Origin: Escherichia coli
GTDB taxonomy: Bacteria > Pseudomonadota > Gammaproteobacteria > Enterobacterales > Enterobacteriaceae
Strand: one strand, 5' to 3'
Assembly (NCBI RefSeq): GCF_024298765.1
Contig: NZ_CP101210.1
Length of the DNA stretch: 64,000 bases
Below, one piece after another: positions 3,001 to 6,000 of the stretch. A program made the position numbers. How positions within the stretch are numbered: position 1 is the first letter of the stretch; the number at the start of each line of letters is the position of its first letter.

Positions 3001-6000
3001 AGAATTATTGTTTATCTGGTTTTCTAAATGCTGTTGTTGCAACTGAGTTTGCGTTTTCAGTTGCTGATTCAGCATCCCTTTTTGCTGGATTTGCTGCGTT
3101 TGCATTTGGGTTTGCATCCGCTGCTGACTGGGGATCTGATACCCCGGCTGGTTAGGGTTGTTCAGAGTATTAATGGGCTGTGCAAAGCCGACAAACGGCA
3201 GGAGTGCCGTAAGAATCAGAAGTCGTTTCATCGCGTATCCTCCTCTGAAGATATTCTTTAAGTTTACTCCTTTCCTGCAATCATCAGGATTAATTCAGAG
3301 TTATATACCAGGCTTAGCTGGGGTTGCCCCTTAATCTCTGGAGAATAACGATGATAAAACCGACGTTTTTACGCCGGGTGGCCATTGCTGCTCTGTTCAC
3401 AGGAAGTTGTTTTAGTACGGTAGCCGCGCCACCTGCGCCGTCTCCTGTTTCTTACGGCGTGGAGGAAGATGTCTTTCATCCGGTACGCGCGAAACAGGGG
3501 ATGGTGGCGTCTGTAGATGCTACTGCCACTCAGGTGGGGGTGGATATCCTCAAGGAGGGCGGGAATGCCGTTGATGCCGCCGTGGCTGTGGGCTACGCGC
3601 TGGCGGTAACGCATCCGCAGGCAGGGAATCTGGGCGGTGGTGGTTTTATGCTGATCCGCTCGAAAAATGGCAATACCACCGCTATCGATTTCCGCGAAAT
3701 GGCTCCCGCCAAAGCGACCCGCGATATGTTCCTTGATGATCAGGGTAACCCGGACAGCAAAAAATCACTCACTTCGCATCTGGCTTCTGGTACGCCCGGT
3801 ACGGTAGCAGGTTTCTCGCTGGCGTTGGATAAATACGGCACCATGCCGTTAAATAAAGTGGTGCAGCCGGCGTTTAAACTGGCACGCGATGGTTTTATCG
3901 TTAATGACGCGCTGGCTGACGATCTCAAAACCTACGGTAGCGAAGTGTTGCCGAATCACGAAAACAGCAAGGCTATCTTCTGGAAAGAGGGCGCGCCGCT
4001 GAAAAAGGGCGACAAGCTGGTGCAGGCGAACCTGGCAAAGAGCCTGGAGATGATTGCCGAAAATGGCCCGGACGAATTCTACAAAGGCACAATAGCGGAG
4101 CAGATCGCTCAGGAGATGCAGAAAAACGGTGGCTTGATCACTAAAGAAGATTTAGCGGCGTATAAAGCGGTCGAACGTACACCGATTAGCGGCGAATATC
4201 GCGGGTATCAGGTTTACTCGATGCCACCGCCATCTTCCGGTGGGATTCATATCGTGCAGATCCTCAATATCCTGGAAAACTTCGATATGAAGAAATATGG
4301 CTTTGGCAGTGCCGACGCGATGCAAATCATGGCAGAAGCTGAGAAATACGCCTACGCCGACCGCTCGGAATATCTTGGCGATCCGGATTTTGTCAAAGTC
4401 CCGTGGCAGGCGCTGACCAATAAAGCCTATGCCAAATCTATTGCCGATCAAATTGATATCAATAAAGCGAAGCCATCCAGCGAAATTCGCCCCGGCAAGC
4501 TTGCGCCTTATGAGAGTAATCAAACTACCCATTACTCAGTGGTGGATAAAGATGGTAACGCGGTGGCGGTGACCTATACGCTGAACACCACCTTCGGTAC
4601 GGGCATTGTCGCGGGCGAGAGCGGTATTCTGCTTAATAACCAGATGGATGATTTCTCCGCCAAACCGGGCGTACCGAACGTTTACGGGCTGGTGGGCGGT
4701 GATGCCAACGCCGTCGGGCCGAATAAACGCCCGCTGTCGTCGATGTCACCAACCATTGTGGTGAAAGACGGTAAAACCTGGTTAGTGACTGGTAGCCCAG
4801 GCGGTAGCCGGATTATCACCACCGTGCTGCAAATGGTAGTGAACAGCATCGATTATGGCATGAATGTCGCCGAAGCGACCAATGCACCGCGTTTCCACCA
4901 TCAGTGGTTGCCGGACGAGCTGCGCGTCGAGAAAGGATTTAGCCCGGATACGCTCAAGCTGCTGGAAGCAAAAGGTCAGAAAGTAGCGCTGAAAGAGGCG
5001 ATGGGCAGTACACAAAGCATTATGGTTGGGCCGGACGGTGAGCTGTACGGTGCATCCGACCCGCGCTCGGTGGATGATTTAACGGCGGGGTATTAAGGTT
5101 AGCGGCCCTCTTCGTGGGAAGAGGGCTTAAATGACAAACTTATATTGCAAATTCTTTATTTCACCCGCGCCATATAATATGCATCGACATATTCACCATT
5201 ACGAAAAGCGTAATTTTTGCCGGTGCCTTCTATGTGAAAGCCGAATTTTTTATAGACTGCGATTGCCGGGGCGTTATCTGCAAACACCGTCAACTCAATA
5301 CGATCTATCCGTAACCAGTTGTCGCACATTTCAATCAATTCGCGGATCAGGGCGCTGGCGACGCCGCGGTTGTGCCAGCGGGAGTCAACACAGATACCAA
5401 AAGTTGCAACATGACTACGGCGTGGGCCTTGATAAGCCTCAATGAAAAGATGACCCACCACGATGCCATCAATGCTGGCAACCAGTTGTTTAAACCCCTG
5501 GCGATCTTTCAATCTTTCTGGCCACCAGCCTTCTGAAGGATGAGGTAGTTGTAGTGTGTTGCAATACACCTCCGGCTGGGCGTGAATCTGCCTGATGGCC
5601 TCGTAATCCCGTGTTTCTGCGTGGCGTATCACTATCTCACTCATTCCTTTGTCCTCTTTGGGGTAAATGTCCCTTTCAACATCATTGACTTTCAAATGCG
5701 AGTCAAATGCATTTTTTTGCAAAAAGTGTTGGACAAGTGCGAATGAGAATGATTATTATTGTCTCGCGATCAGGAAGACCCTCGCGGAGAACCTGAAAGC
5801 ACGACATTGCTCACATTGCTTCCAGTATTACTTAGCCAGCCGGGTGCTGGCTTTTTTTTTGACCTTTCGTTCTCAATTTATCCTCGGGAAGTGCTTGTGT
5901 TCGTTATGCGCACTCCAGTAGGAACCACGTCCGCTTTGCGCTAAGGTGTAAATAACCACCTTAAAAAGGACGAAATCATGGTCATTAACTGCGCCTTTAT

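What the first reader, a model, noticed from the sequence alone, without database searches (positions are those of the whole stretch)
5742..5857. RyhB sRNA with intact Fur box
Canonical iron-responsive sRNA locus between yhhY and yhhX; the Fur box overlaps the promoter and the intrinsic terminator ends in a long U-tract. Known biology, listed for completeness and as a landmark.
Basis: established knowledge. Interest (0 to 1): 0.15.

Follow-up and report, generated by a model that had tools for sequence, protein, structure and literature searches.

The report
Ordinary E. coli RyhB iron sRNA
This is the well-known E. coli small RNA gene ryhB, with its Fur-repressed promoter and its terminator, letter-for-letter identical to the K-12 reference gene; it is a useful landmark but not a discovery.

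Summary
Rfam's RyhB model (RF00057) gives the only match above gathering score in the 64 kb window: 83.1 bits against a cut-off of 55, E = 3.6e-14, at 5795-5859 (+). Window 5642-5863 covers the start of yhhY, the promoter, the Fur operator, the sRNA and the terminator. It is 100% identical to E. coli K-12 MG1655, where ryhB (b4451) maps to window 5766-5860.

- **Promoter:** -35 TGGACA at 5730-5735, an 18-nt spacer, and -10 TATTAT at 5754-5759.
- **Fur operator:** a 16/19 Fur box at 5745-5763 plus a 14/19 site 6 bp upstream. It overlaps the -10 and is the best Fur-consensus match in the window, with 0 expected by chance.
- **Terminator:** a 7-bp hairpin at 5834-5852 ending in a 9-T run.
- **Flanks:** yhhY (5156-5644, -) and yhhX (5978-7015, +).

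In 115 loci from other Gammaproteobacteria that share the 27-nt core, 111 have a Fur box of at least 14/19 upstream, against 2 of 575 control windows. Across 55 of these loci the terminator stem shows compensatory changes.

Verdict: already known, low interest. They leave out the -35 hexamer and the last 3 T's, and they merge the operator with the transcript.

The parts
5730..5735 (+). -35 hexamer TGGACA of the ryhB sigma-70 promoter
   Evidence: Promoter scan: TGGACA, 18-nt spacer, TATTAT, 10 of 12 matches; the only promoter-like site in 5600-6000. Identical to K-12.
5739..5763 (.). Fur operator: two overlapping 19-bp Fur boxes 6 bp apart (5745-5763 at 16/19; 5739-5757 at 14/19), covering the spacer and the -10
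   Evidence: It is the best Fur-consensus match in the window, with 0 expected by chance. Chen et al. 2007 describe a 25.2-bit Fur site overlapping two weaker ones, centred at -15 of ryhB and confirmed by gel shift (PMC2189734). A Fur box in the same place is conserved in 111 of 115 related loci.
5754..5759 (+). -10 hexamer TATTAT
   Evidence: It ends 6 nt before the annotated 5' end at 5766.
5766..5860 (+). ryhB gene, equivalent to K-12 b4451 (95 nt as annotated; the mature RNA is about 90 nt and ends within the U-tract)
   Evidence: K-12 feature 3580922..3581016 (-) mapped through a 100% identical alignment. The Rfam RF00057 hit covers 5795-5859.
5770..5796 (+). 5' stem-loop (UCAGG...CCUGA outer stem)
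   Evidence: MFE fold. The outer stem sequence is nearly invariant in the 28 Enterobacteriaceae-type loci, so there is no covariation evidence for or against it.
5799..5825 (+). Conserved core GCACGACAUUGCUCACAUUGCUUCCAG, the target-pairing region
   Evidence: An exact 27-mer found in at least 120 stretches across Enterobacterales, Aeromonadales and Vibrionales. The computed duplex of 5802-5831 with sodB -18..+6 is -19.0 kcal/mol, matched or beaten by 5 of 1000 shuffles.
5826..5833 (+). A/U-rich linker UAUUACUU just before the terminator (part of the Hfq-binding module; inferred)
   Evidence: Read directly from the sequence. The linker is conserved as a U/A-rich stretch in alignment A2. Its role is inferred from the Hfq-binding-module model discussed in PMC4509938.
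5834..5860 (+). Rho-independent terminator: 7-bp stem with a 5-nt loop (5834-5852); 9-T run at 5852-5860
   Evidence: Covariation across 55 loci: 97.4% of cells paired, 3 of 7 pairs with compensatory changes (22 cells), 0 of 500 shuffles reaching the covariation score. A polyU tail of 9 is reported for RyhB (PMC4509938).
5156..5644 (-). yhhY (GNAT N-acetyltransferase), the divergently transcribed upstream neighbour
   Evidence: ORF list and RefSeq annotation of the identical strain 104 sequence.
5978..7015 (+). yhhX (oxidoreductase), the co-oriented downstream neighbour, 117 nt after the terminator

Best explanation
Window 5730-5860 is the canonical E. coli ryhB locus. Three parts of the account rest on different bases.

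Shown here by sequence: a sigma-70 promoter (-35 at 5730-5735, -10 at 5754-5759) is overlapped by a Fur operator (5739-5763). It drives a roughly 90-nt RNA that starts at 5766 and ends at a hairpin plus U9 intrinsic terminator (5834-5860).

Established for the identical K-12 gene in the literature: when iron is plentiful, Fe2+-Fur occupies the operator and blocks transcription. Under iron starvation the RNA is made and is stabilised by Hfq, which binds the 3' U-tail and the neighbouring A/U-rich stretch. It then base-pairs through its conserved central region (5799-5825) with the translation-initiation regions of mRNAs for non-essential iron proteins, such as sodB, sdhCDAB and bfr. This blocks translation and triggers RNase E-dependent decay, which is the 'iron-sparing' response. 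A few targets (shiA, cirA) are activated instead.

Inferred: because this sequence is identical to K-12 across the promoter, operator, RNA and terminator, it should work the same way in this strain.
For: - Rfam RF00057 hit of 83.1 bits (gathering score 55), E = 3.6e-14, over the full model.
- 100% identity to K-12 MG1655 over 5642-5863, including the annotated ryhB b4451.
- The promoter+gene segment (5725-5865) is present in 5424 of 5426 complete E. coli genomes, at 99% identity or more in 5273 of them.
- Promoter and terminator were found by consensus scans.
- The Fur box is the only match of 16/19 or better in 64 kb, with 0 expected, and there is a second site in 6-bp phase.
- In 115 loci from other genera sharing the core, 111 have a Fur box of at least 14/19 within 20-100 nt upstream, against 2 of 575 control windows. 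In 107 of 115 a T5+ run follows within 45 nt.
- The terminator helix is supported by compensatory changes.
- The computed pairing of the core with the sodB SD/AUG region is -19.0 kcal/mol, reached by 5 of 1000 shuffles.
- Literature: Fur binding to this site was shown by gel shift, with ryhB located between yhhX and yhhY (PMC2189734). The terminator and U9 tail are needed at the 3' end for Hfq binding, with about 20% read-through (PMC4509938). The iron-sparing role, about 50 targets and the Hfq/RNase E mechanism are described in PMC4666370.
Against: Nothing found argues against it. Three caveats apply. The whole-RNA fold is no more stable than shuffled sequence (z = 0.15), which is usual for an sRNA with an open pairing region. 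The 5' and central helices are invariant in the sequences collected, so covariation neither supports nor contradicts them. Expression, Fur repression and Hfq binding in this particular strain were not, and cannot be, tested here.
Confidence: 0.99

Rival explanations
1. The segment is mainly a Fur-controlled leader (5' UTR) of yhhX rather than an independent sRNA gene. The Fur box would regulate yhhX, and the 'sRNA' would be an attenuated leader product.
For: yhhX is co-oriented and starts 117 nt after the terminator, and no other promoter-like site was found in 5600-6000. The Fur site was first assigned to yhhX by Vassinova and Kozyrev, as recounted in PMC2189734. About 20% of polymerases read through the ryhB terminator in normal growth (PMC4509938).
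Against: The strong hairpin plus U9 terminator is conserved with covariation across genera. In many of those genera the core sits in a different genomic context, for example second copies in Yersinia, Photorhabdus and Pantoea. The discrete RNA has demonstrated trans-acting targets (PMC4666370). Read-through products do not bind Hfq. At most this is an additional minor role, not an alternative identity.
Confidence: 0.05
2. The locus is a decayed or paralogous RyhB-like copy (like Salmonella RyhB-2/IsrE) that has lost regulation or function.
For: Many Enterobacterales carry two RyhB-core loci per genome, and a few E. coli genomes contain up to 3 matching places.
Against: The sequence is 100% identical to the functional K-12 gene, promoter and operator. 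It sits in the canonical yhhY-yhhX position. There is only one RyhB hit in the window.
Confidence: 0.005
3. The region is a chance resemblance with no real feature.
For: None.
Against: Rfam E = 3.6e-14. The Fur-box match is expected 0.00 times per window. The locus is conserved in 5424 of 5426 E. coli genomes.
Confidence: 0.001

Closest known systems
E. coli K-12 MG1655 ryhB (b4451; Rfam RF00057)
   Same: Identical sequence for the -35, Fur operator, -10, transcript and terminator (window 5642-5863). Same neighbours, yhhY and yhhX.
   Different: Only the surroundings differ. There are 3 changes in the ryhB-yhhX spacer. The yhhY allele is 82.8% identical in nucleotides and 84% in amino acids. 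The K-12 yhhZ-yrhA::IS1-yrhD-yrhB island between yhhY and ggt is absent.
RyhB homologues and paralogues in other Gammaproteobacteria (e.g. Salmonella RyhB-1/RfrA and RyhB-2/IsrE, Yersinia RyhB1/2, Vibrio RyhB)
   Same: Same exact 27-nt core, an upstream Fur box and an intrinsic terminator.
   Different: Outside Enterobacteriaceae the 5' stem-loop is not alignable. Vibrionaceae have longer 3' parts. Many genera have two copies in other genomic contexts. The names of the paralogues come from my own knowledge and were not tested here.
Functional analogues: Pseudomonas PrrF1/PrrF2, Bacillus FsrA, Staphylococcus IsrR
   Same: Fur-repressed sRNAs that mediate an iron-sparing response by repressing mRNAs of iron-containing proteins (established knowledge; IsrR and FsrA appear in the papers listed).
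   Different: They have no sequence homology to the RyhB core and belong to different Rfam families. They are not members of RF00057.

Membership tests
RyhB (Rfam RF00057) | Covariance-model score at or above the curated gathering score (55 bits) | tested here: met
   83.1 bits, E = 3.6e-14, model positions 1-67 of 67, not truncated (repeated).
RyhB (Rfam RF00057) | Conserved central core (GCACGACAUUGCUCACAUUGCUUCCAG) used for target pairing | tested here: met
   Exact at 5799-5825. The same 27-mer was found in at least 120 stretches of gammaproteobacterial genomes. Computed pairing with the sodB translation-initiation region is -19.0 kcal/mol, reached by 5 of 1000 shuffles.
RyhB (Rfam RF00057) | Fur box overlapping the promoter (iron-responsive transcription) | tested here: met
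   16/19 at 5745-5763 and 14/19 at 5739-5757, overlapping the -10 at 5754-5759. A Fur box is conserved upstream of the core in 111 of 115 loci, against 2 of 575 controls. The identical K-12 site binds Fur in a gel shift (PMC2189734).
RyhB (Rfam RF00057) | Rho-independent terminator with a long 3' U-tail (Hfq-binding module) | tested here: met
   7-bp stem, 5 of the pairs G-C, followed by a 9-T run. The helix is supported by 22 compensatory cells across 55 loci.
RyhB (Rfam RF00057) | In E. coli: single chromosomal copy between yhhY and yhhX, identical or near-identical to b4451 | tested here: met
   The sequence is 100% identical to K-12, and 99% or more in 5273 of 5424 genomes.
RyhB (Rfam RF00057) | Accumulation of a ~90-nt RNA under iron limitation or in fur mutants; Hfq dependence; RNase E-mediated decay of targets | not testable with these tools
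   Known for the identical K-12 sequence from the literature (PMC4666370; PMC4509938). Not measured for this strain.

The most novel reading that the evidence does not exclude
Two mildly novel readings are not excluded. First, read-through of the ryhB terminator (about 20% in K-12) might put yhhX, and possibly yhhW, under Fur and iron control, making the locus a dual sRNA/leader unit. Second, the perfectly conserved ryhB promoter region marks a sharp recombination boundary. Identity to K-12 drops from 100% to about 65-85% starting roughly 60 nt inside yhhY, next to a variable island site. Neither reading changes what the feature is.
Probability: 0.15. Interest if true: 0.15.

Novelty: already known. 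Interest (0 to 1): 0.04.

Why it matters
RyhB is the textbook Fur-repressed, Hfq-dependent sRNA that runs the iron-sparing response. Finding it intact adds nothing new scientifically. It does have practical uses. It anchors the window to the yhhY-ryhB-yhhX-gntRKU region of an E. coli chromosome. It is a positive control showing that the first-stage reader can recognise a roughly 90-nt sRNA gene with its operator and terminator from raw sequence. It also flags that the RefSeq records checked list no annotated feature at ryhB, so scans that rely on annotation would miss it.

Tried and rejected
(1) Thermodynamic stability as evidence. The fold of 5767-5859 is -20.7 kcal/mol against -21.2 ± 3.1 for shuffles (z = 0.15). 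This is uninformative and was not used.

(2) RNAalifold on 28 Enterobacteriaceae-type full-length sequences. It predicts a central helix different from the one in Rfam's consensus. Every pair in both versions is invariant, partly because the loci were retrieved with the exact core, so the data cannot choose between them. There were no compensatory changes in this subset. Covariation appeared only for the terminator in the broader 55-locus set.

(3) Unrestricted RNAduplex of full RyhB against the sodB leader. It gave an unrealistically long duplex that swallowed the terminator (-34.3 kcal/mol, reached by 23 of 500 shuffles). I replaced it with a calculation restricted to the region between the 5' stem-loop and the terminator. 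Even that duplex is a computed one and is longer than a short seed interaction.

(4) A permissive Rfam scan of 5000-7200. It found only one further hit, a chance-level match (ncr952, 17 bits against a gathering score of 100).

(5) The primary papers (Massé and Gottesman 2002; Massé et al. 2005) are not in the held library. Statements about mechanism are therefore cited from PMC2189734, PMC4509938 and PMC4666370, which summarise them.

(6) The paralogue/pseudogene and chance readings were considered and rejected on identity, synteny and statistics.

Full report
**Observation.** The sequence at 5500-6100 contains GCGATCAGGAAGACCCTCGCGGAGAACCTGAAAGCACGACATTGCTCACATTGCTTCCAGTATTACTTAGCCAGCCGGGTGCTGGCTTTTTTTTT at 5766-5860. 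An Rfam scan of the whole 64 kb window at gathering thresholds returns a single hit. It is RF00057 (RyhB) at 5795-5859 (+), 83.1 bits against a gathering score of 55, E = 3.6e-14, covering model positions 1-67 of 67. A permissive rescan of 5000-7200 adds only a chance-level match.

**Anatomy.**
- **Promoter:** the consensus scan finds one sigma-70-like promoter in 5600-6000. It has TGGACA at 5730-5735, an 18-nt spacer and TATTAT at 5754-5759, for 10 of 12 matches.
- **Terminator:** the same scan finds one intrinsic terminator, AGCCAGC-CGGGT-GCTGGCT at 5834-5852, followed by T's. The T run spans 5852-5860, which is 9 T's. This matches the polyU tail of 9 reported for RyhB (PMC4509938).
- **Fur operator:** the 19-bp Fur consensus GATAATGATAATCATTATC matches once in the window with 3 or fewer mismatches, at 5745-5763 (16/19), and none of 100 shuffles gave a match. 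A full ranking of the window shows a second, overlapping site at 5739-5757 (14/19), exactly 6 bp upstream. This is the usual hexamer phasing of Fur operators. It agrees with Chen et al. 2007, who describe a 25.2-bit site overlapping two weaker ones, centred 15 bp upstream of ryhB and confirmed by gel shift (PMC2189734). The operator covers the -10 hexamer and most of the spacer.
- **Fold:** the minimum-free-energy fold gives a 5' stem-loop (5770-5796), a small central hairpin and the terminator hairpin. Overall stability is no better than shuffled sequence (z = 0.15), so I do not use it as evidence.

**Identity and context.** The window is E. coli. A 2-kb segment around the locus is 100% identical to several complete genomes, for example strain 104, NZ_CP029164.1. 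The whole window is colinear with that strain apart from two 1-nt homopolymer differences and one SNP. Aligned to K-12 MG1655, window 5642-5863 is 100% identical. The K-12 feature 'ncRNA ryhB b4451, 3580922..3581016 (-)' maps to window 5766-5860.

The 141-nt segment holding the promoter and the gene is found in 5424 of 5426 complete E. coli genomes, at 99% identity or more in 5273 of them.

**Evidence from other genera.**
- **Loci collected:** an exact search for the 27-nt core (window 5799-5825) in one genome per species returned at least 120 stretches. They span Enterobacterales, Aeromonadales and Vibrionales and often include two per genome.
- **Fur box upstream:** in 115 of these loci with enough flank, the best Fur-consensus score 20-100 nt upstream of the core averages 15.4 of 19. 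It reaches 14 or more in 111 loci, against 2 of 575 random 80-nt control windows from the same loci.
- **T run downstream:** in 107 of 115 a run of 5 or more T's follows within 45 nt.
- **Terminator covariation:** in a 55-sequence alignment of the 3' part, the terminator helix is paired in 97.4% of cells. Three of its 7 pairs show compensatory double changes (22 cells). No shuffle out of 500 reaches the covariation score, and all slid-register controls score far lower.
- **5' and central helices:** among 28 Enterobacteriaceae-type full-length sequences these helices are invariant. They are neither supported nor contradicted by covariation.

**Mechanism.** The sequence shows a Fur operator placed where a bound repressor would exclude RNA polymerase, a discrete transcription unit of about 90-95 nt, and a hairpin plus U9 3' end.

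For the identical K-12 gene the following is established. Fur represses ryhB (PMC2189734). The terminated RNA, but not read-through products, binds Hfq and is stabilised by it, and about 20% of polymerases read through in unstressed cells (PMC4509938). RyhB has about 50 target genes, mostly repressed and encoding non-essential iron proteins such as sodB, sdhCDAB and bfr, with shiA and cirA activated. It acts on translation initiation and on RNase E-dependent mRNA decay, which constitutes the iron-sparing response (PMC4666370).

As a local check, I folded the stretch between the 5' stem-loop and the terminator (5795-5833) against the K-12 sodB leader. It pairs 5802-5831 with sodB positions -18 to +6, covering the Shine-Dalgarno sequence and the AUG. 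The energy is -19.0 kcal/mol, against -10.2 ± 2.6 for shuffles, and 5 of 1000 shuffles do as well. That the RNA behaves the same way in this strain is inferred from sequence identity.

**Comparison and membership.** Every testable defining feature of RyhB is met: the covariance-model score, the core, the Fur box, the terminator and U-tail, synteny, and identity to b4451. Expression and Hfq dependence cannot be tested here. The rival readings (a yhhX leader, a decayed paralogue, chance) are rejected or reduced to a minor additional role.

**Verdict.** The feature is already known. Interest is low (0.04). The value of the locus is as a landmark and as a positive control for the scan.

Noticed in passing
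window 5156-5644 (yhhY) and 5097-5155: Identity to K-12 is 100% across the ryhB intergenic region but falls sharply about 60 nt into yhhY. Overall yhhY is 82.8% identical in nucleotides and 84% in amino acids, and as low as 65% in one 60-nt block, whereas yhhX is 96.6% identical. Only 71 of 5424 genomes match the 2-kb segment 5100-7100 at 99% or more. So ryhB sits at the edge of a recombination or allele-replacement boundary.
   Followed up: partly
window 5097-5155 (between ggt and yhhY): The K-12 segment yhhZ-yrhA::IS1E-yrhD-yrhB, about 3.4 kb between yhhY and ggt, is absent here. ggt and yhhY are separated by only 59 nt.
   Followed up: partly
window 27899-28075; T-run at 28036-28038: A fimbrial subunit gene is frameshifted in the window. 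It has TTT where strain 104 has TTTT, which gives a stop after about 58 codons instead of an intact 171-aa protein. This could be a pseudogene, slipped-strand variation or a sequencing error in a homopolymer.
   Followed up: partly
window 39287-40303 (rtcA); T-run near 40031-40036: rtcA (RNA 3'-phosphate cyclase) is intact in the window at 338 aa. In the otherwise identical strain 104 it is annotated as frameshifted, because that strain has one T fewer in a homopolymer.
   Followed up: partly
window about 23140-32565: A seven-gene chaperone-usher fimbrial cluster and three hypothetical genes lie between glgP and glpD. I recall glgP and glpD being adjacent in K-12, which would make this an island, but I did not check it here. 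A 15/19 Fur-consensus match lies just upstream at 22903-22921. The surrounding region is AT-rich, so this may be chance.
   Followed up: no
window 57548-57572 (upstream of feoA, 57213-57440, - strand): Two overlapping 13/19 Fur-consensus matches lie 6 bp apart in the feoABC promoter region. This is a second Fur-controlled locus in the window, and it scores much weaker against the consensus than the ryhB operator.
   Followed up: no
window about 53265-54520: An IS3-family transposase with a programmed frameshift is inserted between rpnA (yhgA) and feoC.
   Followed up: no
window about 63100-63772: A small two-gene pair, annotated as a NadS family protein and a RelE/ParE-family toxin, lies just before pckA.
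   Followed up: no
RefSeq records hit: No ncRNA feature for ryhB appeared in any RefSeq record listed. The full feature table of strain 104 lacks one, and the 12 rows shown list 'none' under the match. Only the K-12 record carries the ryhB feature. Scans that rely on annotation would miss this gene.
   Followed up: partly
L082 10920-11253 and L086 about 11695-12030 (L082 is Salinivibrio costicola); two-locus genomes: L082 and L086 each carry two RyhB-core copies in tandem about 300 nt apart, each with its own upstream Fur-like box. Yersinia, Photorhabdus, Serratia, Pantoea, Pectobacterium, Hafnia, Mixta and Acerihabitans each have two unlinked copies.
   Followed up: no
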